This document shows, one piece after another, positions 18,271 to 63,535 of a stretch of 64,000 nt of DNA. The notes under the pieces are model-generated. The model was not told the DNA's origin and searched no databases. It saw only the letters and a list, made by a program, of their open reading frames with translations. The first letter of the stretch is position 1. Each line of letters begins with the position of its first letter. Both the position numbers and the translations under genes were made by a program. The stretch lies in NCBI RefSeq assembly GCF_003019035.1, contig NZ_CP027448.1. The stretch is one strand, 5' to 3'. This DNA comes from Escherichia coli. Lineage in GTDB: Bacteria; Pseudomonadota; Gammaproteobacteria; Enterobacterales; Enterobacteriaceae.

Positions 18271-19643
18271 AGTGTGCTCCCTCCGAAGTGATAGTTGTTC
18301 TGGTAACGACTGAGCATGCGGGCGGAAAGCTGCTGACGCATGTAGCTCATCTGACGATCGACAACCAGCAGCGCATCCTGCTGTACCTGCACCTGTGACT
18401 GAAACGCCGCAATCTGCCGGGTGGCATCATTCATGTTGTCGTTAATATGCTCGATAACCGCTTCGTCATAATTTCCCGTGGCCACCATCGCCCGGGCCTG
18501 CTGTATCAGCTCCTGAATGTACTGCAGCAGGATGTCGTAACCGATATAGTCCGTCAGCTGGTAAATCATGCTGTTGGAAACGCCGAGCATCTGCGGGTCA
18601 ACCAGATATTTGAAGACGGGGATGGTGGTACTGGAAATAAAACCTTTTTCCTTGTCATCCAGAGGCGTGTCACTGACCGCTTTGTTCTGAATGCTGGCCA
18701 GAAGTTTAGTAATCTGAGACTTCAGTGCATTATCCCGGCTGATGGTCACCGGTGTGTCAGCCACCACTTTCAGGCATTTATCAGAATCGTTGCAGTGATA
18801 AATTTTTGCTGTGCCGCCTTCCATCATGGCCCGGATAATTGAGCGGTCAGAGGTTCTGGCTGACAGCGGTGTGATTTCGCCGTTGGGACCAAACACCAGT
18901 GAGCCGGTCAGCGTCATCACAAATTCTTTCAGCTCTTTGTTGCCGTCAAACATTCTGTTTTTGGAAAGCGCATTCCACATGATGTTGATGTTTTTGGTCA
19001 CCCGCTCCTTATCCTTGTCGCTGGCTTTATCCCTGACACTGTCAGATTTCCCGCCAACGGTACATCCCTGCCGGGAAGCCGCCCAGTCAGCAAAAATATT
19101 GCTCTCACCGGCAATGTCCTGACAGACTTTCTGCTGGGACACCTGCGTCCGGGGGAAAAGCCCGCCGATAATCCCCTGTGCAGCCTGGCAGGAACTGAGG
19201 TTCATACTGTTAATGTCGCTTGCCATTTTCTGCACGAAGTCTTTTGCGGTTTTTATTTCCGGCACCGTTGTCTGCAGGGCAAGGTCAAAAAAGTAACCGG
19301 CAGCATTGCTCATAATCTGCTTAACAAAACGCTGCAACTGCTCACCATTAATAAAACTGAACGAGCCGAGATAGGCGTCGATGCCGCCACATCCAGCATT
19401 GATATCCGGCAGCGTCATGGAAATTAGCTGAACATTTTTGACCTGAGTACGGGCATACAGGGAGCCACCGTAAGCATAGCCGGCGGCCTGCCCCTGCCAG
19501 ACGCCCGGCTGTGTGGTATTGGAAGCAAATCCCAGCTTATTAAAGAACTGATTCATGTCGCTGTTCACATCCGCTGACGCTGCAGGCGTCACCGTCAGTA
19601 AGGCGGCACAAAGAACCAGAAGAGGTTTAATGCGTGGCATCAT
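18267..19643 (-). CDS. traH: TraH pilus assembly protein, 458 aa
   Basis: Signal peptide MMPRIKPLLVLCAALLTVTPAASA; size and order as in F. Confidence 0.93.
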   Translation of the reverse strand: MMPRIKPLLVLCAALLTVTPAASADVNSDMNQFFNKLGFASNTTQPGVWQGQAAGYAYGGSLYARTQVKNVQLISMTLPDINAGCGGIDAYLGSFSFINGEQLQRFVKQIMSNAAGYFFDLALQTTVPEIKTAKDFVQKMASDINSMNLSSCQAAQGIIGGLFPRTQVSQQKVCQDIAGESNIFADWAASRQGCTVGGKSDSVRDKASDKDKERVTKNINIMWNALSKNRMFDGNKELKEFVMTLTGSLVFGPNGEITPLSARTSDRSIIRAMMEGGTAKIYHCNDSDKCLKVVADTPVTISRDNALKSQITKLLASIQNKAVSDTPLDDKEKGFISSTTIPVFKYLVDPQMLGVSNSMIYQLTDYIGYDILLQYIQELIQQARAMVATGNYDEAVIEHINDNMNDATRQIAAFQSQVQVQQDALLVVDRQMSYMRQQLSARMLSRYQNNYHFGGSTL

Positions 19644-20020
19644 TCTTGCCCTCCCTTAATGTGTTCTCCCGGTGCATACGACATTTCAGCAGGAATATCT
19701 TGATATTTCCGTATATTAATTCGTACATTGGGGACAGAAAAAAATGTAACAAGAAACCCGGCTGCAAGCGCATATAACGTATACGGAATGGCATATATCA
19801 GGATATTCCACATATAACTCGAATTATTTAATTCCGGGTCCGCTTTCCACGAATCAATACAGGCATCAAAAATAATATCCATAACTGTCCATAAAACAAT
19901 TCTGGCAGTCAGGAATACCAGAGACAACCCAGCATACCTGCCAGTAATTCTGGAAATGTATTTATAATCTCGTTCTGTACTTCTGATTTTGAGTTCAGGA
20001 TTACTTTTATTTTCTCTCAT
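19640..20020 (-). CDS. trbF: TrbF, 126 aa membrane protein
   Basis: ATG at 20020 (MRENKSNPELKIRS...) gives the F TrbF length; position between trbJ and traH. Confidence 0.7.
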   Translation of the reverse strand: MRENKSNPELKIRSTERDYKYISRITGRYAGLSLVFLTARIVLWTVMDIIFDACIDSWKADPELNNSSYMWNILIYAIPYTLYALAAGFLVTFFSVPNVRINIRKYQDIPAEMSYAPGEHIKGGQE

Positions 20021-20288
20021 TATAAGCCCCCTCTGATATTTCCGATAATTCATTCAGACCGGTCATGCGGCTGTAATATATTTCAGACACCGAAATCCAT
20101 CCCACAATTGCCCCCACAAAAAACACAACAGAAACAGAAAAGGTAAGACTCAGAGAAACGACAATTTCTACAGGGCTGGCGGGATAAAAAAGCCCCTGAC
20201 GGATAAAGGGGATATTCAGGCTGACGATTATTCCCGTCACGATGCCGGATATTCCGGCAATGAGTAACACCACCTGCTTATTTCGCAC
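20007..20288 (-). CDS. trbJ: TrbJ, 93 aa membrane protein
   Basis: Size and position match F trbJ; two predicted TM segments. Confidence 0.7.
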   Translation of the reverse strand: MRNKQVVLLIAGISGIVTGIIVSLNIPFIRQGLFYPASPVEIVVSLSLTFSVSVVFFVGAIVGWISVSEIYYSRMTGLNELSEISEGAYNERK

Positions 20289-55129: not shown

Positions 55130-55256
55130 TGTTTACACTGGCTGATATCAACAGTTTCTACGCCTCATGTGAAAAAGTTTTCCGCCCGGACCTTCGCAAC
55201 GAACCGGTCATCGTACTCAGCAATAACGATGGCTGTGTGATCGCACGCAGCCCAGA
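55129..55256 (+). pseudogene. impB: impB (UmuC-family Y-polymerase) 5' fragment, codons 1-42
   Basis: MFTLADINSFYASCEKVFRPDLRNEPVIVLSNNDGCVIARSP, then the frame is lost at 55257. Confidence 0.9.
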
Positions 55257-55301
55257 TTATGTGGAATTGCAAGTAACGTTGTAGTGCTGATGAGGAAAAT
55301 T

Positions 55302-57530
55302 TTATCTGACTACAATATTGATATCGTTTTCCGCAACAATCAGCATCACGGCAGGTAAACCCTCCACACGCATTTTCTGGTGTAATTTTTTGATTAAATT
55401 ATCATCTTCATTACTGGCTTTTGCGGAAAAGCCTTGTGGATGGGAGTGCCATTCGCCAACATAATCGACAACACGAGCGGTCAACTGGTGAACCCGTTCT
55501 AATGCTTCTTGTTGTCCCGCTTCTCCCCGGACAAAGGAGGCTGGAGAGGATTTACTGTCGATAGGTTCAGGGAGCACGTCAACCAGAATAATCGTTTTGT
55601 TCTTAAAATCTGTTATGCCAACAATTGCACCTCCTGTTTCATTAGGCAGTGCCTGTAAGCGGGTGTGCTGCAATTTTTGCGCTAAGCCCTGGTCATATTT
55701 AACAACCCATTCGCCAGAAATTATAGATACCACGGAATAGAGTTCAATTTCATGTGCATCCATCGCGCCTGATATTTCATCAGATACCCAGATACACAAT
55801 CGAGCATTTCCTTTGAGTGCAGTCTGGCGAAGTTGGCGTGAGAGGATACCGGCATGAACATGAATACATTCACTGGACATACGTACAGAAATATCCCGAC
55901 ATCCACCACCGACCCAACGATCGCCATAATTGTGCTGTAGGTGAGTACTTCCCCACTCACTGCTCAAAATTGCCCGATAGTATTGCCCCTCAATTGCATC
56001 AATTCGGCATTGTCTGTCTACATCCTCCATTAACATCACGCTAGACTGACCCGATGGAGTCAGAAACAGGCTAACTATTCTGGGTATATCATCTTTTAAC
56101 ACTAGAGTCCTCGGCACCTCAAAGGTGGTACTGACATCCACAACTAAGTCTGCCTCATTCATTGCCTTAGCAATATCATCATCGTCATCAAGAATACTTT
56201 TATGGATCGCCTGAGGGAGGGGCTCATGCGGATAAATAGATTTGGCAATATGCTGAATAATATGGGGTTTTGAGACTCCAATATGACAATCAAACCCAAT
56301 ATGGCGAGACAAATTATGTGGAAGAAGCCGATCTGGATCAATAAAAGTCCATGTCCCCCACCCCATTCGAATCCAAATATCAGCCAATGTACTACCAAGA
56401 GCGCCAACTCCAGCTAAAATACCTCGAAAAGCTGCACTCTCTGAATCAACAGCAGATATGTCTCTCGCATGTGTGGCCTTCATAGCCGAACGTATTTCAA
56501 CTGGTAAAAGCGGTAATTGTCGCCACTTGGTACTAATTGATCCGCCAAGAAGCCGTACGCGATGCTGTACTCCTCGCTCATTTTTTGGCGCCAGCATATC
56601 TAGTGCAGTGGCAAGTTCACCGAGTGAACTTTGCACAACATAGCCCATCACATCCGTACGTTCTGTTTCTCCGTTTCTTAGACGGGGGATCCAAAGCAGG
56701 ATAAGTAAGCCTTCTCCTTTACCAGACGTTGGGCGGATACCATCACTTGGTATTGCTTCATAAACAGCGTCAGTTAGTGGTTTTAGGAGCTCACTTCCCC
56801 ATTCATTAAGTTGTTCTTCTAATTTTCCCAGATTATCCGGGTATGTAGCCACCGTAGAAACATCGACAGGAGGAACAGCAATAGTTAATAAGCGAAATGG
56901 CTTAACGCTTGAGGTATCTTGTTCTGGTACAGCCCTTAAAATAATCGGTCGCCCCTCACTGACCATCTGGAGACTGAGCTTATTGTCAGTCGCGTGATGA
57001 TAATCGGGGTAATTGGCTGGCAAAATGAGCTGATAGGGACTCAAATAAAAAAGTTGCTCAAGTGGCTGATCTTCTCGATGTAGATGCAGTTCGGCCGATT
57101 CTCTAAGCCACCAAAAAATGCGCTCAAGGAATCTCTCGGGGGTCCAACTGCGCTCAACTGCGCTCCAGGAGGCCTCATATAGGCAAAGAATTCGTGGTGA
57201 GCCAGGTTCTCCAGCATGCTGGTGAGAAAGAACAGGGAAATCTTTCCGCAATGCATGAACCAAGATAGGTATGCTTGATTTGGGATTGACCTCAATAGCC
57301 AATCGTTCTTTACGACGAATACGGGCTTGATTACCAGAAGCCACAGTCCCATCAGCAGCATCAATGATTAGATATTCCGAGCGGTTATCATTTATTTCAG
57401 AAAATCGTAATTCTCTGACTGTGACGTAAGGATGATTCTCGCATGCTTTAAGCAGCGAAATCGTTTGTGGATAAAGGCTATCGCGCCCCGATGAATCGAG
57501 GCGCTCACCCAATTCGAAATATTCGATCAT
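55302..57530 (-). CDS. E2-like / E1 (ThiF) adenylation / JAB deubiquitinase-like triple-fusion protein, 742 aa (Cap2+Cap3-like)
   Basis: E2-like LSHQHAGEPGSPRILC(116)LYE. E1 GILAGVGALGS (G374-x-G-x-x-G379), FIDPDRLLPHNLSRH, ADLVVDVSTTFE, GGGC(544)RD. JAB NE(631)TGGAIVG and EWH(695)SH(697)PQGFSAKAS(706)NED(709). Confidence 0.8.
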   Translation of the reverse strand: MIEYFELGERLDSSGRDSLYPQTISLLKACENHPYVTVRELRFSEINDNRSEYLIIDAADGTVASGNQARIRRKERLAIEVNPKSSIPILVHALRKDFPVLSHQHAGEPGSPRILCLYEASWSAVERSWTPERFLERIFWWLRESAELHLHREDQPLEQLFYLSPYQLILPANYPDYHHATDNKLSLQMVSEGRPIILRAVPEQDTSSVKPFRLLTIAVPPVDVSTVATYPDNLGKLEEQLNEWGSELLKPLTDAVYEAIPSDGIRPTSGKGEGLLILLWIPRLRNGETERTDVMGYVVQSSLGELATALDMLAPKNERGVQHRVRLLGGSISTKWRQLPLLPVEIRSAMKATHARDISAVDSESAAFRGILAGVGALGSTLADIWIRMGWGTWTFIDPDRLLPHNLSRHIGFDCHIGVSKPHIIQHIAKSIYPHEPLPQAIHKSILDDDDDIAKAMNEADLVVDVSTTFEVPRTLVLKDDIPRIVSLFLTPSGQSSVMLMEDVDRQCRIDAIEGQYYRAILSSEWGSTHLQHNYGDRWVGGGCRDISVRMSSECIHVHAGILSRQLRQTALKGNARLCIWVSDEISGAMDAHEIELYSVVSIISGEWVVKYDQGLAQKLQHTRLQALPNETGGAIVGITDFKNKTIILVDVLPEPIDSKSSPASFVRGEAGQQEALERVHQLTARVVDYVGEWHSHPQGFSAKASNEDDNLIKKLHQKMRVEGLPAVMLIVAENDINIVVR

Positions 57531-58708
57531 TGGTTTGATACACCTGCCCTAGGAGCGGCGGCCGTAGCAGCACTTACCGCAGCTGAAACAGCACCAACAA
57601 TAGCGGGTATTAACTTCCCGTCTCCAGCCACTTCAAATTCAAGGAACGCTGTATCTTTAAGATCCCCCGTACAGCTAAACCAACCATCAACACTGTCCAG
57701 AATATCCTCATACTCACGCTTAGCCCGGATGCACGGTGGATCATAATCATCATCAAGTATCTGATTGCTACTCGATACAATTGTTGCCCCGGAACGAGCC
57801 TGACCTAAAGCATTACGGGCCGCATCACAAACTTCAGCATTCTCCCCCCATTGTGACCAGCTATCATAGGAAAGTGAATGCCATGAACAATGATGCGGTG
57901 TGAGGAGAAGATCATATTCTAGTGCCTCAGCATTGCTTTTGTAACGATCCCATAATCGCTCCCAGATGAGAACTTCTGCGTCTCCACCTAATAGAAAGTG
58001 CATAGGATTACGGGAATATGCAGAGGGCAGTATTTTCATGTTCATGATGATACTGGATTCGTTTTTAGAAAGAGCTTCTTCCAAATATTCATCATCTTCA
58101 TGTGGTGCGGGCGCCAGAAGCTGTGCGGAGAACACTTCTGAAATTTGCCCGTCAATTCTGGTGAATGTATCTCCAGCTTTGATAAGAATGGCACTCAGAT
58201 CATCTGTTTTGCCATTAATATCTTCACCCATGATAAGGATTCGATTACCGCTAGATGCATAACCATGTTCCCGCCAGTATTTTACTCGGCGCCGTGCTTC
58301 TGTATTAAATGCCTGAGCATCTTCGCAAAGTGTGTGACTTTTGGAACGACGCCGAAAAATCAATGGTGATGACCACAATTCTCGAATAATGATACGCTTT
58401 TCTGAACGTTTCACATCGTCATCTGGATAATCTTCAGGACGGCCCAGCCAGAAATGTTTACGCAGGCCACCGCAATGATCCTGATCGGGATGACTGAGCA
58501 TAAAAACATCAATAAAGGGACGATCTTTTTCATCATACTTCAATCTGCTACGTAATGCCGAGGCAACATCAGGTGTGTCATCATTGGGGTTATCAGCAGC
58601 AGAGCGAATATGTACATCAATCAGAATGGATGTGCCCCGGGTGTCGGCCAAACGTACCAGTGTCATATCACCGTTGCCGACTTGGAAAAAAGTAATTTTG
58701 GCTGCCAT
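57527..58708 (-). CDS. Metallo-beta-lactamase-fold hydrolase, ComEC/Rec2-like subtype, 393 aa, with Ala/Gly-rich C-terminal tail
   Basis: FFQVGNGDMTLV, LSHPDQDHCGG, LLGGDAE and LTPHHCS follow the ComEC-type MBL motif order. The AGGAG SD favours ATG at 58708 over 58714. The stop overlaps the next gene's start (ATGA at 57527..57530). Confidence 0.78.
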   Translation of the reverse strand: MAAKITFFQVGNGDMTLVRLADTRGTSILIDVHIRSAADNPNDDTPDVASALRSRLKYDEKDRPFIDVFMLSHPDQDHCGGLRKHFWLGRPEDYPDDDVKRSEKRIIIRELWSSPLIFRRRSKSHTLCEDAQAFNTEARRRVKYWREHGYASSGNRILIMGEDINGKTDDLSAILIKAGDTFTRIDGQISEVFSAQLLAPAPHEDDEYLEEALSKNESSIIMNMKILPSAYSRNPMHFLLGGDAEVLIWERLWDRYKSNAEALEYDLLLTPHHCSWHSLSYDSWSQWGENAEVCDAARNALGQARSGATIVSSSNQILDDDYDPPCIRAKREYEDILDSVDGWFSCTGDLKDTAFLEFEVAGDGKLIPAIVGAVSAAVSAATAAAPRAGVSNQ

Positions 58709-58767
58709 CGACATCTCCTTTAGGGATACGAAAGATTGAGGTTAAGAGCATCTATTGCTAAGATACA

Positions 58768-58795
58768 TCTAGTAATTATACTAGTCTAGTAATTA
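58768..58795. promoter_or_regulatory. Candidate operator in the divergent promoter region
   Basis: Direct repeats TCTAGTAATTA at 58768..58778 and 58785..58795, enclosing the palindrome TACTAG-T-CTAGTA (58779..58791). Confidence 0.4.
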
Positions 58796-58842
58796 GACGT
58801 ATATTTTGGACTTAAATTGTAAGTACAGGAAATTATTGATAA

Positions 58843-59697
58843 ATGAGTGATAAAATGGTGAGAACTGGTCATTGGAGCCAAGAAAGACGGCTTGAATTCA
58901 TCGATTTTCGCCTACTGTGGGAAGGTCGGCTTAACCGTGCAGATCTCACGACATTTTTCAGAATTTCAGTTCCGCAAGCCTCATTAGATTTGGCAAAATA
59001 TCAAGAAGTTGCGCCAAACAACATGGTGTATGATCGAACTCAGAAGGCTTACATTACGACTCCTGATTTCAAACCTGTTTTTACAAGCTTTGACAGTAAT
59101 CATTACCTGAATGAACTACTTGGGCGAGAAAATGAAATAGTGGATCCTGATGATAGTTTCATTGGGTGGGTACCCCCGGTAGCCAGCCTTCCTCTCCCTG
59201 CCAGGAAAGTACAACCTGAAATATTGATTGATTTAATTCGAGCCATGCAAAGAAAACAGGCTTTGGTTGTTGATTATCGCTCAATGACTAATGAACCAGC
59301 AATTCGTACGCTATACCCAACAGCATTTGCACATGATGGGCATCGGTGGCATGTTCGTGCTTATTGTTTTAAGTCTACAATGTTTAAAGATTTTGTTCTT
59401 GGTAGGTTTTTTAAAATCGTTGAATTTGTTTCCCCACCGACATCAATTCCACAAGATGTGGACTGGAATACATTTATTGACGTGGTAATAGGTCCAAACC
59501 CTAACTACGATATGAATAAACGGCTATCTATTGAACATGATTATCAAATGGTAAAAGGAGAAGCAAAAATCCACATACGTAAAGCGCAATTATATTATCT
59601 TAATCGTCGATTAAATTTGGATGTAAATAGCGATGGTTCAATAGATGACAAACAGCAGATCATCATGCTCAGAATAGACGAGTCTAAAACCTATTAA
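58843..59697 (+). CDS. wHTH-WYL-domain transcriptional regulator (CapW/BrxR-like), 284 aa
   Basis: N-terminal RRLEFIDFRLLWEGRLNRADLTTFFRISVPQASLDLAKYQ (wHTH); WYL-type core ALVVDYRSMTNEPAIRTLYPTAFAHDGHRWHVRAYCFKSTMFKDFVLGRF. Confidence 0.78.
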   Translation: MSDKMVRTGHWSQERRLEFIDFRLLWEGRLNRADLTTFFRISVPQASLDLAKYQEVAPNNMVYDRTQKAYITTPDFKPVFTSFDSNHYLNELLGRENEIVDPDDSFIGWVPPVASLPLPARKVQPEILIDLIRAMQRKQALVVDYRSMTNEPAIRTLYPTAFAHDGHRWHVRAYCFKSTMFKDFVLGRFFKIVEFVSPPTSIPQDVDWNTFIDVVIGPNPNYDMNKRLSIEHDYQMVKGEAKIHIRKAQLYYLNRRLNLDVNSDGSIDDKQQIIMLRIDESKTY

Positions 59698-59709
59698 GGG
59701 AATATTTAT

Positions 59710-60228
59710 ATGAATGCGAATGATGTTAACAAACGGAATAAAGAATGGATGATTGTAATCATTATTATCTATCTTTTTATTTTGTTATGTATAGCAACAT
59801 ACGCTATTGGGGCTATGTCTCTAGGTTGGTTACCAACACCTTACGCACCATTAAGGGTGCCACTGATGTGCGGAGCAATTGCCTATATAGGTGGTTGTTT
59901 ATATTGTTTTCGTGCAATTTACCTCAATAAATGTATTAGAAAACAATGGGATCCAGATTGGCATGTATGGTATTTCATTCGCCCACTGACCAGTACAATC
60001 GCAGGTGCTATCAGTTATTTATTCCTTAAGGCGGGGTTGTTAGTTTTGGAGTCTAGTTCCAATGTAGGAGCTAGTGAAATGGGTTTCTTTGCGCTGGCAT
60101 TTATTGCTGGTTTTAACGTCGATAAATTTGTCGCAAAAATCGAGGAAGTTGCAAAGGCTGTCTGGGGTATTGAAAAAACTCGAAGCTCGACTAATAATGA
60201 TGCGAAAAATTCGGAAAAAAAAGAATAG
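59710..60228 (+). CDS. Four-TM membrane protein with charged C-terminal helix, 172 aa
   Basis: Hydrophobic segments ~13-35, 50-70, 85-108 and 122-137; starts 13 nt after the WYL gene stop; no motif recognised. Confidence 0.6.
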   Translation: MNANDVNKRNKEWMIVIIIIYLFILLCIATYAIGAMSLGWLPTPYAPLRVPLMCGAIAYIGGCLYCFRAIYLNKCIRKQWDPDWHVWYFIRPLTSTIAGAISYLFLKAGLLVLESSSNVGASEMGFFALAFIAGFNVDKFVAKIEEVAKAVWGIEKTRSSTNNDAKNSEKKE

Positions 60229-60274
60229 TCTGGATGTATTTAAATTAAAATGAAATTAGTGCTGAGCTATTTTA

Positions 60275-62486
60275 TTACTTTCTCTTATTTCCTGGGGTCG
60301 CGCCCCCAGTGAGCTTATTCAAAAGTTTGTCCACTGCCTGTATATCGTTTTCTACAGCGGCTTGTTCGTCATCAGTCAAAGGGATTTCCTGCATCAGCTT
60401 GAGTAGATTCTGGCGACCTTCCAAGTATTGTGCTTCAGATGAAGATTTTGGCATATAAAATGAGCATTTTGCACATGCCATCCGATGGGGGCATTGCTCA
60501 AAAAAGTCATAAGTACAGAAACCGTGTCCAAGATCATAATAACGCCATGGCTTCCCGGATGCTACCAGCCCTTCAGCTATCGCGTCTTGATCAATGAGAA
60601 CTGAAACCATGCGGCGATTACATTCAAAGTAACCAGCTTTATCCAGTGATCCTGCCAACCTCGTCGGTGTAATTTCGACATAATGTCGGGTAGATTCAGG
60701 TGAAGAATGCCCCAACCATTTCTGTAGCTCAAAAATATCAAGTGGTTCCCTGGCGTTGTAAAGCTGACTGGCTATAGTGGCTCTTGCCCGATGGCTGGTG
60801 ATTTTACCTCTGGCATCCTGCTCAGGTATACCAGCCTTTCTGCATAGCAAAGGGATTAGCGAATTATTAATATAACTACTGTGTACCCGTTTCCCCCTGT
60901 GCATGAACAAAAAACGGACGCTTTCACCTGTTTTAGAATCTTCCTGGAGGGGGTGGGGGTTACGAACAAGTTCCCATTGTTCGATATATTCCCCGATAAT
61001 AGGGTCAACTGGCTTTGTGAATGCCGCGTAAGTCTTGCTAACGGGTACATCTATCAGACAGATACGGGATACATTATTTTCTTCTGGCTGTTGCCAGCGG
61101 ATACACCCACACTGCATACGTAGAATTTCATCACGTCTGAGGCCTCCAAATAACCAGAGAACGCTGAGTGCTCTGACCATCTCCAGTGGATAAAAATAAG
61201 GATATGCAACACAGTTTGGTAAATCCGACTCCTGCAGGTTCTGTCCGGCGTGAAGTAATTTACACCACATATCATCGGCCACAATACGAGGCTCTGGTCC
61301 AACCAGGGAAGTCAAGCTACGCGGTGCCCTGAAAACTCTTTCTGGGCTGAATCGTACAGGTATCCATCCCCATTCCTGCAAGTCATGAAAGAAAGTTCTA
61401 ATATGACCCAACATCCTGGCTCTCGCTGCAGGCATCATCATTTTGCCACGACGGTCACGATACATGCCCCCAGGGGTTGCCCATTCACCAACTTTCATTC
61501 TACAAGCGGCGGTCACCCAGACGATCGCGGTGTCCCGTGTCCAATCAGATGGTGACAGACAGGTTGGATAGCACTCAGCTAACCAGCTGACCACACTTTA
61601 GCAAAACGTACCAACCGGACAAAATAGATGAAGGGCGAAGTACTGAGGTAGCACGCCACCGTTTGCACCATACCAGCCATTTAGTTGGTACATCAGCTGT
61701 TGCATTATATTCGCGGGGAGGACGGCGACGTTGTGTTATTCGGTAATCAACCCCTTCCTCAATAGTCCCTGATGCAGCCAGTATACGCGATAGAGTAGCT
61801 GAGGCTTCCCGGAGGGAATCCGGGCACGTTGCAGCAATCTGTTGCAACGTGGTCACGGTGATATGGTCTAGTTGAGCATCCCTTTGCAGAAGCATTGCCA
61901 TACACATGGCATTTCTGATGCCGTTGTTCCGACTATCACGAGGCACATATCCCAGAACCTGCATCATATTGTCAAGCTGGCTGACGGCAAAATCGGTGCT
62001 CTGTCGGCCAAAAACCTTAAGACAGAGCCGATATTGATAGAATATGCCACAGTGTTCCAGCCGCTCAAACCCACATAGCAACCATGCTAACGCTATAACA
62101 TATTGCCGACAGTTGCCGCTGGCTCCAAACCGTCGACGAAATTCCCCTTCGCTGTTGCAAATAACTTCTAACCACTCTTCTTGTGTCCAGGCCCAGTATG
62201 TTTTCCGGATGCGCTGCATCTCTAGGACTATATCGTGAATAGATGAATTGTAGGGGGCCTTGGCCGCATGCATTTTTGTTAGCGTGTCGCGTAGTGGTAA
62301 AAGAAGGCGGGAAAGCCGTTTTTGTATATCAGGTGACCAGTTTTTACCTCCTTGCTGGAAGTGGTCGACCAATGTATCCAGTGCCGCAAGCTCGCTTTCA
62401 GAGATCTCCGATCGGGTATCCCAAAGTAGGGCAGGAAGACTGAGTGATGTTGTCGGACAAGGCGCTGTATGTTCAGATTGCATCAT
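60275..62486 (-). pseudogene. Large tyrosine recombinase (Tn554 TnpB-like) split by a 1-nt frameshift into 303-aa N-terminal and 439-aa catalytic ORFs
   Basis: ORF 61575..62486 has no catalytic residues and ends ...GWYVLLKCGQLVS*. ORF 60275..61594 (track start is a GTG) continues ...WLAECYP... and carries GGLRRDEI, SHRARATIASQL, GHSSPESTRHYVE (R-H-R-Y) and a CPHRMACAKC motif. The frames overlap at 61575..61594. ATG 62486 overlaps the upstream stop (ATGATG). Confidence 0.65.
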
Positions 62487-63535
62487 GGAGAAGGATCCTG
62501 CTGTTGTAGTACAGTAAGGCGGCAAGTATGCAAGGATGCGACCGTGTAATTGAAACGACTACTCAGATCACGTGCGCTGAGATGAATATAGAGCAGAGTT
62601 GACTGGATACGACGGTGGCCAGCGAATGCAGCAATTTCGTGGATGTCCCACCCCACGCGTGCCAGTTCTGTCAGACAAAGATGTCGGAATGTGTGGGTGC
62701 TGATGAGTGGAAGATCAGCCTTAATAGCTAAACCGCGAACTACTTTTGACCAAGTCCAGTTGCTAATAGGTTCTGCCCGATTACGCGGAGAGCGTGAGAG
62801 AAACAACGGACCGCGAGATGAGCTTAGCATACGACGTTCAGTGAGCCATGCTGTGTAGAGTTCCCCCGTCACAGGAGAATAGGGCACAACCCGACCAAAG
62901 CGGTTTTTGGTATGCTCAGCGCGCACAGTGAGCAAGCGTTGAGAAGGGTCAATATCTCCGGTAGCTACTGTGCAAAGTTCTTCTCTGCGTAATCCGCAGT
63001 CGTAGGCCAGTGCCAGCATAAAACGAGTACGGATATCAGCTTGTCCGGCTACCTCAAGAAAGCGCAACCACTCCGCATCATCCGGGATCCACGGTAGCCG
63101 CCGCTGCAACGGCACTATACCAGCTTTTCCTTTCCCTCCGTTTTTCCAGACACCTCGTCTGACAGGATTTCTCTCCCGTATCCCCTCCTCACAAAGCCAA
63201 TAGTTGTACAGTCGTACCACCGTCAGCCGGTGGCGGATAGTGGCAGCTGCCAGCTGGCGACCGGTATGCAGGCTGCGGACATAGAGTGCGACCGTATCAC
63301 GTCCAGCGACAGCAGCCGTCAGGGCAACAGAGTGACAGAAAGCGAGCCAGTCATTGACGCCACGGGCATAGGCATCAATGGTGTTTGGAGCACACAGCAG
63401 GTCCTCCTGCAGGCACACCCACCGGCAAGCTGAAGGATCGGCCGACAGAAAAGGCAGCGCATCCAGCAGTTTCTTGTGCACAGCATCCCCCTTTTCGATA
63501 ACAGAATGTGTTGTATGAAATATAGTCAATTCCAA
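62483..63535 (-). CDS. Tyrosine recombinase (TnpA/XerD-like), up to 350 aa
   Basis: Catalytic set GLRREEL, HTFRHLCLT, GHRRIQSTLLYIH. The track start (63535) is a TTG only 8 nt from the element end; GTG at 63481 with a GGGGGA SD is a plausible alternative. Confidence 0.85.
   Translation of the reverse strand: MELTIFHTTHSVIEKGDAVHKKLLDALPFLSADPSACRWVCLQEDLLCAPNTIDAYARGVNDWLAFCHSVALTAAVAGRDTVALYVRSLHTGRQLAAATIRHRLTVVRLYNYWLCEEGIRERNPVRRGVWKNGGKGKAGIVPLQRRLPWIPDDAEWLRFLEVAGQADIRTRFMLALAYDCGLRREELCTVATGDIDPSQRLLTVRAEHTKNRFGRVVPYSPVTGELYTAWLTERRMLSSSRGPLFLSRSPRNRAEPISNWTWSKVVRGLAIKADLPLISTHTFRHLCLTELARVGWDIHEIAAFAGHRRIQSTLLYIHLSARDLSSRFNYTVASLHTCRLTVLQQQDPSP

What the first reader, a model, noticed from the sequence alone, without database searches (positions are those of the whole stretch)
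58715..59697. CapW/BrxR-like WYL regulator with repeat/palindrome operator candidates in a 128-bp divergent promoter region
The 284-aa protein has a wHTH followed by a WYL-type core (GHRWHVRAYCF...DFVLGRF). This is the architecture of the repressors that gate CBASS (CapW) and BREX (BrxR).

The region between the two start codons (58715-58842) contains:
- two 11-bp direct repeats TCTAGTAATTA at 58768 and 58785, spaced 17 bp start to start;
- the palindrome TACTAG-T-CTAGTA between them.

This suggests one operator controls both transcription units, so the module would be kept silent until a signal is sensed.
Basis: partly seen in the sequence, partly recalled or inferred. Interest (0 to 1): 0.6.

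Follow-up and report, generated by a model that had tools for sequence, protein, structure and literature searches.

The report
CapW repressor guarding a 6A-MBL defence operon
This is an ordinary but well-preserved member of the known CapW/BrxR family of DNA-damage-sensing repressors.

Summary

- **Regulator.** ORF 58843-59697 is a full-length CapW homologue (E=1e-62 to solved CapW). It keeps the wHTH-WYL-WCX architecture, the RWHVR motif and the DNA-contact residues.
- **Divergent operon.** This is the known 6A-MBL anti-phage system: an MBL-fold protein plus an E2-E1-JAB fusion.
- **The repeats.** The two 11-bp direct repeats are the cores of two abutting 17-bp CapW boxes. O1 is 58766-58782 and O2 is 58783-58799. 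Both have the geometry CGTnTA-N5-TAnACG, the same as the experimentally verified E. coli upec-117 CapW site.
- **Family-wide support.** A box with at most 1 mismatch lies upstream of 46% of 85 CapW homologues, against under 1% of composition-matched shuffles. Boxes recur at 17- and 15-bp offsets.
It is only the O1/O2 junction and is not conserved.
- **Promoters.** The boxes overlap every candidate core promoter element in both directions.
- **Likely mechanism (inferred).** CapW dimers silence both transcription units until single-stranded DNA binds the WYL domain.
- **Verdict.** A new member of a known kind, of modest interest.

The parts
58843..59697 (+). capW: 284-aa wHTH-WYL-WCX transcriptional repressor of the CapW/BrxR family
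   Evidence: - phmmer against PDB sequences: 7tb6 Sm CapW E=1.2e-62 over residues 10-282, 7tb5 Pa CapW 4e-62, 9c5g Rl CapW 2e-49, BrxR 7t8k 2.5e-38.
- 40% identity to Sm CapW.
- Pfam WYL. Precomputed Pfam hits WHD_BrxR, WYL and BrxR_CTD on the identical protein.
- AlphaFold2 model pLDDT 82.9. Foldseek top hits are CapW, then BrxR.
58766..58782 (.). O1: CapW box CATCTA-GTAAT-TATACT, 2 mismatches to CGTnTA-N5-TAnACG.
   Evidence: - Pattern match.
- The left arm (GATACrTmTAG) is conserved in all 19 aligned 6A-MBL loci. The right arm is conserved only in Enterobacteriaceae.
58783..58799 (.). O2: CapW box AGTCTA-GTAAT-TAGACG, 1 mismatch, arms 5/6 self-complementary.
   Evidence: - One of only two sites with at most 1 mismatch in 64 kb (expected 0.92 per window).
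- GTCTA and CG are invariant in relatives.
- Same 6+5+6 geometry as the verified site CGTATA-ATAAT-GCTACG of E. coli upec-117 CapW (PMC11662680).
58798..58814 (.). O3 remnant: CGTATA-TTTTG-GACTTA, 4 mismatches, right arm lost
   Evidence: - Relatives carry a third box 15 bp after O2, for example CGTATATTTTTTATGCG in L084 (1 mismatch) and CGTATAATTTTTAATCG in L012.
- The window and L082 have a 2-bp deletion in the T tract.
58736..58764 (+). Candidate capW promoter: -35 TTGAGG (58736-41), 17-nt spacer, extended -10 TGcTAAGAT (58756-64). The predicted start near 58771 falls inside O1.
   Evidence: - Read from the sequence. The TTGAG and GCTAAGATAC blocks are conserved in 15 of the 19 aligned loci (window plus 14 relatives).
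- It scores 8/12, below the scan threshold.
- The scan instead lists TTGCTA (58755)-16-TATACT (58777-82), which is not conserved.
- Inferred, not mapped.
58760..58788 (-). Candidate 6A-MBL operon promoter on the minus strand: -35 TAGACT (58788-58783, which is the left arm of O2), a 17-nt spacer that is exactly O1, and -10 TATCTT (58765-58760). A lineage-specific alternative is a perfect TATAAT at 58780-58775 inside O1.
   Evidence: Read from the sequence. The underlying blocks are conserved. Inferred, not mapped.
57527..58714 (-). 6A-MBL system MBL-fold protein (395 aa from the first ATG; the likely start is 58708, giving 393 aa)
   Evidence: NCBIfam NF058524 6A-MBL_enzyme, E=1.4e-127, 425.6 bits against a cut-off of 220.
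55302..57530 (-). 6A-MBL system E2-E1-JAB fusion ('cap2_3'), 742 aa
   Evidence: - NCBIfam NF058523, E=2e-198, 661 bits against a cut-off of 320.
- Pfam Prok-E2_A, ThiF and Prok-JAB.
59710..60228 (+). 172-aa predicted membrane protein, 12 nt after the capW stop codon, probably co-transcribed with capW
   Evidence: - No terminator-like site lies in the gap.
- A homologue follows capW in L002, 3, 5, 7, 8, L083 (same 172 aa) and L089 (P0140). A small protein of 153-180 aa follows capW in L082, L084-86 and L088, and its homology was not tested.
- No match in Pfam, NCBIfam or PADLOC.

Best explanation
ORF 58843-59697 encodes a CapW-family repressor. CapW dimers bind two abutting 17-bp boxes, O1 (58766-82) and O2 (58783-99), in the spacer shared with the divergent 6A-MBL operon. 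The boxes cover the predicted core promoter elements and start sites of both transcription units.

Occupancy would therefore silence two units at once:
- the MBL and E2-E1-JAB genes in one direction;
- capW plus the downstream membrane-protein gene in the other (autoregulation).

Single-stranded DNA made during DNA damage or phage or prophage activity would bind the WYL domain at the RWHVR motif (R168-R172). That pushes the two wHTH domains apart, releases the DNA and derepresses the module.

Shown here: homology, domain architecture, conserved contact residues, conserved boxes with the family geometry, and conserved gene linkage.

Inferred by analogy with characterised CapW and BrxR: dimer binding, repression, the ssDNA signal and the exact promoters.
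For: **Protein**
- E=1e-62 to solved CapW across all three domains. Foldseek ranks CapW first, then BrxR, then DriD/PafBC (5e-26, 1e-19 and 1e-8).
- The DNA-binding residues mutated in Sm CapW (R32, S42, Q45, S47; PMC9122588) are identical here. They are invariant in 23 homologues, as is R-W-x-x-R.

**Operator**
- O2 has the same 6+5+6 layout as the verified E. coli upec-117 site (PMC11662680). BrxR sites also have 10-11-bp arms with a 5-bp spacer (PMC9122601, PMC9122589).
- In the 210 bp before capW homologues, boxes with at most 1 mismatch occur in 14/34 6A-MBL-linked loci and 25/51 other loci. The rate in dinucleotide shuffles of the same regions is 0.5-0.8%.
- Boxes with at most 2 mismatches occur in 29/34 and 48/51 loci, against about 8.5% in shuffles.
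- The G and T at box positions 2 and 3, which lie 7 and 6 bp from the centre, are the bases BrxR R38 contacts (PMC9122589; matrix).

**Tandem boxes**
- Pairs of boxes are spaced 17 bp (34 pairs), 15 bp (25) or 32 bp (18). Other spacings are rare, 12 pairs in all.

**Linkage**
- Every homologue of at least 55% identity that was examined is divergent from MBL plus E2-E1-JAB. This covers 11 species genomes and 8 further contigs.
Against: - No binding, transcription-start or expression data exist for this locus.
- The box pattern was defined after looking at the window and one published site. Only the 51 non-MBL loci are a fully independent test.
- At up to 2 mismatches the pattern is not enriched in the window as a whole: 14 found, 15.6 expected. 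O1 on its own would therefore be unremarkable. Its support comes from position, abutment to O2 and conservation.
- The right arm of O1 is not conserved outside Enterobacteriaceae.
- Promoter hexamers are weak, and several alternatives fit (and reading of the sequence).
- For E. coli upec-117 CBASS, CapW-dependent induction was not needed for defence against lytic lambda (PMC9122588). 'Silent until a signal' may therefore overstate the biology.
Confidence: 0.85

Rival explanations
1. The repeats are chance features of an AT-rich spacer (30% G+C), or merely promoter elements (-10-like TATAAT and A/T tracts), and are not regulator sites.
For: - The 6-bp-arm palindrome alone has p=0.22.
- Boxes with up to 2 mismatches are as common as chance across the window.
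- The box consensus itself contains -10-like strings (CGTATAAT).
Against: - The 11-bp direct repeat has p=0.006.
- The half-site bases are the most conserved columns across Enterobacteriaceae and Pseudomonas loci whose proteins are only 55-70% identical.
- The same box occurs upstream of CapW genes linked to Wadjet, CBASS and Pycsar. Those promoters are unrelated, and the rate is 50-90 times that in composition-matched shuffles.
Confidence: 0.04
2. The protein is a WYL-type activator like DriD or PafBC. On this view it switches the operon on when it binds ssDNA, not off.
For: DriD and PafBC share HTH-WYL-WCX domains and also sense ssDNA (PMC10853764, PMC11804915). They appear in the fold search at E=1e-8 to 1e-5.
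Against: - The protein is much closer to CapW and BrxR, which are repressors: E=5e-26 by fold and 1e-62 by sequence.
- The boxes lie over the predicted -10, spacer, -35 and start sites, not upstream of the -35.
Confidence: 0.05
3. The dyad symmetry acts at the RNA level, as a 5'-UTR hairpin or attenuator. Alternatively it is a recombination site for the neighbouring tyrosine recombinases, or a LexA operator tied to the flanking umuDC genes.
For: - A 46-bp imperfect dyad spans 58760-58805.
- The island is bounded by recombinase genes and umuDC.
Against: - RNA folds are no better than shuffles (z = -0.67 and -0.81), and there is no Rfam match.
- The motif is conserved in loci that lack the recombinases.
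- No LexA box with 3 or fewer mismatches is present in the spacer.
- The long dyad follows automatically from two similar palindromic boxes placed side by side.
Confidence: 0.02

Closest known systems
CapW (CBASS-associated WYL repressor; S. maltophilia 7TB6, P. aeruginosa 7TB5, R. leguminosarum 9C5G, E. coli upec-117)
   Same: - Same length and wHTH-WYL-WCX architecture; about 40% identity to Sm CapW.
- Same DNA-contact residues and RWHVR motif.
- Encoded divergently from a defence operon.
- An imperfect palindrome with 6-bp arms and a 5-bp spacer lies over the core promoter.
- A second gene follows capW, as cap17 does in E. coli upec-117.
   Different: - The controlled operon is 6A-MBL, not CBASS.
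- There are two abutting boxes (three in relatives), whereas a single palindrome was assayed for CapW.
- Nothing has been tested experimentally for this protein.
BrxR (BREX-associated WYL repressor; Acinetobacter 7T8K, E. fergusonii pEFER 7QFZ)
   Same: - Same fold family (E=1e-19 by fold, 2.5e-38 by sequence).
- Operator made of two half-sites 5 bp apart.
- G:C and T:A contacts 6-7 bp from the centre.
- NCBI's pipeline names the identical protein 'BrxR family helix-turn-helix transcriptional regulator'.
   Different: - Lower identity (27-31%).
- BrxR uses an SRQQ recognition motif, whereas this protein has S-V-P-Q-A-S.
- BrxR lies upstream of BREX in the same orientation.
- The two R-boxes of pEFER are about 800 bp apart, not abutting.
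6A-MBL / 'MBL pathway' anti-phage system (relative of type II CBASS)
   Same: Both signature proteins score far above the NCBIfam equivalog cut-offs. The order MBL then E2-E1-JAB is the same in all relatives.
   Different: - In the papers I could search, I found no statement that CapW is a regular partner of this system.
- Seven MBL operons are reported with the regulators CapK and CapS instead (PMC13373217).
- The primary 6A-MBL paper (van den Berg et al. 2024, as cited in PMC13276650) is not in the library.

Membership tests
CapW/BrxR wHTH-WYL-WCX repressors | Three-domain architecture: N-terminal winged HTH, WYL domain, C-terminal WCX dimerisation domain, about 280-300 aa | tested here: met
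   - Full-length alignment to solved CapW (residues 10-282, E=1e-62).
- PF26109 WHD_BrxR, PF13280 WYL and PF26107 BrxR_CTD on the identical protein.
- Foldseek top hits are CapW and BrxR.
CapW/BrxR wHTH-WYL-WCX repressors | RWHVR motif on the WYL domain, the ssDNA-contacting arginines | tested here: met
   R168-W169-H170-V171-R172 are present. R168, W169 and R172 are invariant in 23 homologues. The motif is defined in PMC11662680.
CapW/BrxR wHTH-WYL-WCX repressors | Conserved DNA-contact residues of the recognition helix (Sm CapW R32, S42, Q45, S47) | tested here: met
   The residues are identical at the same positions and invariant in alignment A1.
CapW/BrxR wHTH-WYL-WCX repressors | Imperfect palindromic operator with half-sites 5 bp apart, in or over the promoter of the adjacent defence operon | tested here: met
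   - O2 has 1 mismatch and O1 has 2 mismatches to CGTnTA-N5-TAnACG.
- Family-wide enrichment over shuffles.
- Computational only.
CapW/BrxR wHTH-WYL-WCX repressors | Encoded next to an anti-phage or anti-plasmid system | tested here: met
   - Here the gene is divergent from 6A-MBL, and this holds in 19 related loci.
- More distant clade members sit next to Wadjet, CBASS and Pycsar.
CapW/BrxR wHTH-WYL-WCX repressors | Homodimer that represses transcription and is released by ssDNA | not testable with these tools
   Needs EMSA or fluorescence polarisation with and without ssDNA, plus reporter assays.
6A-MBL anti-phage system | MBL-fold protein and E2-E1-JAB fusion encoded as an adjacent pair | tested here: met
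   NF058524 scores 425.6 bits (cut-off 220) and NF058523 scores 661.1 bits (cut-off 320). The two genes overlap by 4 nt.
6A-MBL anti-phage system | Protection against phage | not testable with these tools
   Plaque assays are needed. The literature lists 6A-MBL among jumbo-phage defences of P. aeruginosa (10.1101/2025.09.30.679545).
DriD/PafBC-type WYL activators | Closest relatives are activators, and the binding site lies upstream of the -35 | tested here: not met
   Fold E-values are 1e-8 or worse, against 5e-26 for CapW. The boxes overlap the core promoter candidates.
LexA/SOS-controlled operon | LexA box CTGT-N8-ACAG in the promoter | tested here: not met
   No site with 3 or fewer mismatches lies in 58690-58850.

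The most novel reading that the evidence does not exclude
CapW-clade repressors may not work from a single palindrome. They may work from a fixed array of two or three 17-bp boxes: O1, then O2 17 bp later, then O3 15 bp after that and sharing a CG with O2.

Neighbouring dimers would then sit on roughly opposite faces of the helix and coat both divergent promoters. This array is conserved whether the cargo is 6A-MBL, Wadjet, CBASS or Pycsar.

In the window's lineage, O3 has decayed through a 2-bp deletion, and O1 and O2 have become nearly identical. Cooperative multi-dimer assembly would give a sharper switch than the single-site model in the literature.
Probability: 0.4. Interest if true: 0.45.

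Novelty: new member of a known kind. Interest (0 to 1): 0.3.

Why it matters
- **A concrete target.** The result gives a mutable operator (58766-58799) for the regulator of a ubiquitin-like anti-phage system. That system's activation and targets are still unknown, and it travels on E. coli, Salmonella and Klebsiella plasmids.
- **Cross-system consensus.** The box consensus (TAy-n-CGTCTA-gTwAt-TATACG-n-rTA) and the 17/15-bp array hold across CapW genes linked to four different defence systems. They could therefore be used to predict CapW regulons and to design derepressed or tightly silenced constructs.
- **Limits.** It does not change the current picture of how WYL repressors work.

Tried and rejected
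Its centre (58785) scores lower than the O1 and O2 centres in a cross-locus dyad profile, and it is absent from Pseudomonas relatives. Rejected.
- **Dyad profile with 12-bp arms.** The top centre (58798.5) reflects the overlap of the O2 right arm with the O3 left arm plus A/T-rich flanks. The profile was not decisive alone.
- **Promoter scan.** It found one hit, at chance frequency, and the hit is not conserved.
- **NCBIfam scan of the regulator.** No model matched, although PGAP names the protein BrxR family.
- **Sm and Pa CapW site sequences.** The paper's supplements held only figure legends.
- **Literature on 6A-MBL plus CapW.** No explicit statement was found, and the primary paper is not in the library.
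- **RNA structure and Rfam.** Nothing found.
- **LexA box.** None. An earlier window-wide listing was uninformative.
- **Second 1-mismatch box at 19769-85.** It lies inside an ORF and is consistent with chance.
- **One context look-up failed** (P0217).

Full report
**1. The observation**

The sequence shows TCTAGTAATTA at 58768-58778 and at 58785-58795, 17 bp apart. TACTAG-T-CTAGTA lies at 58779-58791. The palindrome overlaps the second repeat; it does not lie strictly between the two.

ORF 58843-59697 encodes 284 aa with GHRWHVRAYCF and DFVLGRF.

The divergent ORF has two in-frame ATGs. The second (58708) has AGGAG 6 nt upstream and is the start that PGAP uses in identical plasmids. The spacer is therefore probably 134 bp.

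In 5000 dinucleotide shuffles of the spacer:
- a direct repeat of at least 11 bp arose in 0.6% of shuffles;
- a 6-bp-arm palindrome arose in 22%;
- both together arose in 0.1%.

The repeat is therefore beyond chance. The palindrome alone is not.

**2. The protein**

phmmer against all PDB sequences gives, over essentially the whole length:

| Structure | E-value |
|---|---|
| S. maltophilia CapW (7TB6) | 1.2e-62 |
| P. aeruginosa CapW (7TB5) | 4e-62 |
| R. leguminosarum CapW-ssDNA (9C5G) | 2e-49 |
| BrxR (7T8K) | 2.5e-38 |
| BrxR (7QFZ) | 2.5e-30 |

- Identity to Sm CapW is 40%.
- The identical protein carries precomputed Pfam hits WHD_BrxR, WYL and BrxR_CTD.
- An AlphaFold2 model (pLDDT 82.9) finds CapW first by Foldseek (5e-26). 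BrxR follows at about 1e-19. The activators DriD and PafBC appear only at 1e-8 or worse.
- The residues whose mutation abolishes DNA binding in Sm CapW (R32, S42, Q45, S47; PMC9122588) are identical here. They are invariant in 23 homologues down to 48% identity.
- The ssDNA-contacting RWHVR motif (PMC11662680) is R168-R172.

**3. What it sits next to**

The divergent operon is the 6A-MBL anti-phage system:
- the 395-aa protein matches NCBIfam NF058524 (E=1e-127);
- the 742-aa protein matches NF058523, with Prok-E2_A, ThiF and Prok-JAB domains (E=2e-198).

The literature treats 'MBL pathways' as relatives of type II CBASS, in which a fused E2-E1 conjugates the system's enzyme (PMC11601596). 6A-MBL is also listed among P. 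aeruginosa jumbo-phage defences (10.1101/2025.09.30.679545).

A 172-aa membrane-protein gene follows capW after 12 nt, with no terminator in the gap.

Near-identical copies of the whole stretch occur in 28 of 5426 complete E. coli genomes and in 170 PLSDB plasmids.

**4. Is the linkage conserved?**

- A scan of one genome per species returned 80 loci. All 11 with at least 55% identity (an Enterobacteriaceae MAG and ten pseudomonads, Pseudomonas/Aquipseudomonas) have capW divergent from MBL plus E2-E1-JAB. So do about 20 of the more distant ones.
- Eight further contigs at 67-92% identity show the same module of E2-E1-JAB, MBL and capW; seven also have the small gene after capW (the Providencia contig ends 68 bp after capW). 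They come from Cronobacter, Klebsiella, Pectobacterium, Aeromonas, Providencia, Yersinia and P. aeruginosa.
- The other distant clade members (42-48% identity) face different systems. Of 50 neighbours, 24 are type I JetA (Wadjet) and 9 are type III JetA. Five are patatin CBASS effectors, one is a Pycsar cyclase and one is a CD-NTase. This agrees with published associations (PMC11662680).

**5. The operator**

Aligning the spacers of 19 6A-MBL loci shows conserved blocks:

GCTAAGATACrTmTAG ... ACyrGTCTAk ... TAkrCGwAT-ATTTTTTATrCC

The published E. coli upec-117 CapW site is TAAAAACTGAT[CGTATA-ATAAT-GCTACG]CT (PMC11662680). It has two 6-bp arms 5 bp apart. BrxR sites likewise have 10-11-bp arms and a 5-bp spacer (PMC9122601, PMC9122589).

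The window's AGTCTA-GTAAT-TAGACG (58783-58799, O2) has exactly this layout, with arms 5/6 self-complementary. Immediately to its left, CATCTA-GTAAT-TATACT (58766-58782, O1) is a second copy, 13/17 identical to O2.

**6. Testing the box**

I fixed the pattern as CGTnTA-N5-TAnACG. It was derived from O2 and the published site, so the 6A-MBL relatives are not a fully independent test.

Within the 64-kb window:
- Only two sites have at most 1 mismatch (expected 0.92). One is O2. The other lies inside an ORF.
- At up to 2 mismatches the window holds 14 sites (expected 15.6). Two of them abut in this spacer.

In the 210 bp upstream of CapW homologues, compared with dinucleotide shuffles of the same regions:

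| Best site | 6A-MBL-linked loci | Other loci | Shuffles |
|---|---|---|---|
| at most 1 mismatch | 14/34 | 25/51 | 0.5-0.8% |
| at most 2 mismatches | 29/34 | 48/51 | about 8.5% |

Random windows of the same loci gave 0% at up to 1 mismatch and 2.9% at exactly 2 mismatches.

The position matrix gives TAy-n-CGTCTA-gTwAt-TATACG-n-rTA. Its best-conserved G and T lie 7 and 6 bp from the centre. These are the positions where BrxR R38 makes base contacts (PMC9122589).

**7. Arrays**

Relatives carry a third box, O3, 15 bp after O2 and sharing its terminal CG. An example is CGTATATTTTTTATGCG in L084. The conserved T tract is the O3 spacer.

In the window, O3 (58798-58814) has lost its right arm, following a 2-bp deletion.

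Across all loci, pairs of boxes with up to 2 mismatches are spaced as follows:

| Spacing | Pairs |
|---|---|
| 17 bp | 34 |
| 15 bp | 25 |
| 32 bp | 18 |
| other | rare (12 pairs in all) |

This holds in loci not linked to 6A-MBL too. A 17-bp offset shares no bases, so it cannot be a side effect of the pattern overlapping itself.

Offsets of 17 and 15 bp would put neighbouring dimers on roughly opposite helical faces (inference). Higher-order assemblies of DNA-bound BrxR dimers were noted at high protein concentration (PMC9122589).

**8. Promoters (inferred)**

- **capW (plus strand).** The conserved candidate is TTGAGG (58736-41), 17 nt, then TGcTAAGAT (58756-64). The start would fall near 58771, inside O1.
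- **6A-MBL operon (minus strand).** The conserved candidate is TAGACT (58788-83, the left arm of O2), 17 nt (exactly O1), then TATCTT (58765-60).
- **Lineage-specific alternative.** The window's lineage also has a perfect TATAAT at 58780-75, inside O1.
- **Scan result.** The consensus scan listed only TTGCTA-16-TATACT, at chance frequency.

Whichever is used, O1 and O2 overlap core elements in both directions. This parallels CapW sites over the -10 and the bidirectional repression shown for E. coli upec-117 (PMC9122588).

**9. Rivals**

- **RNA structure.** Fold z-scores are -0.67 and -0.81, and there is no Rfam hit.
- **LexA control.** No box is present.
- **Recombinase site.** The motif persists in loci without recombinases.
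- **Activator role.** The protein is far closer to repressors, and the boxes lie over the core promoter.

**10. Verdict**

Three refinements apply:
- there are two tandem family-type boxes;
- the palindrome is incidental;
- the controlled module is 6A-MBL.

The regulator family, its signal (ssDNA) and its promiscuous association with defence systems are already published. NCBI already names this protein BrxR family. This is a new member of a known kind.

The fixed 17/15-bp box array across the clade is the one aspect I did not find described, and it would be worth a footprinting experiment.

Noticed in passing
window about 55250-63535 (umuC parts at 55129-~55250 and from ~63529): The defence module plus three tyrosine-recombinase genes (60275-63535, minus strand) form an island of about 8.3 kb. 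The island splits a plasmid umuC/impB gene after about codon 41. Relatives also sit beside umuD: in Cronobacter (L082) the module lies between two Peptidase_S24 genes, and in K. variicola (L083) recombinases are present. This suggests a recombinase-driven element that targets umuC.
   Followed up: partly
window 59710-60228; L002-L012, L083, L089, L090: - The 172-aa four-helix membrane protein has no family assignment but 563 homologues.
- It is 75-92% identical in loci where CapW is only 55-68% identical.
- Its position varies: after capW, or after E2-E1-JAB in L011 and L012.
- It is missing from some loci (L004, L006, L009, L010).
- It could be an accessory effector of the module.
   Followed up: partly
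L090 6553-7623; L085 241-1326; L088 204-1289; also L002, L004, L006, L007, L009, L010, L011: A second, unrelated MBL-fold protein of about 360 aa often flanks the CapW/6A-MBL module at either end. In Allopusillimonas (L090) it pairs with the membrane-protein homologue, with no CapW or 6A-MBL nearby. It is absent from the window. It may be a separate two-gene system.
   Followed up: partly
L013-L081 (upstream neighbours of CapW homologues): The same CapW clade (42-48% identity) has the same box consensus but faces other systems. These are Wadjet JetA type I (24 of 50) and type III (9), patatin CBASS effectors (5), a Pycsar cyclase and a CD-NTase. The regulator and its operator therefore behave as a portable cassette.
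   Followed up: yes
window 19769-19785: A second CapW-box match with 1 mismatch (CGCATATAACGTATACG) lies inside ORF 19640-20053 (minus strand). About 0.9 such sites are expected per window, so it is probably chance.
   Followed up: partly
window 58803-58815 compared with L083-L089 and L002-L012: The window and the Cronobacter copy (L082) share a 2-bp deletion in the conserved T tract. The deletion removes the third box (O3) that other relatives keep.
   Followed up: yes
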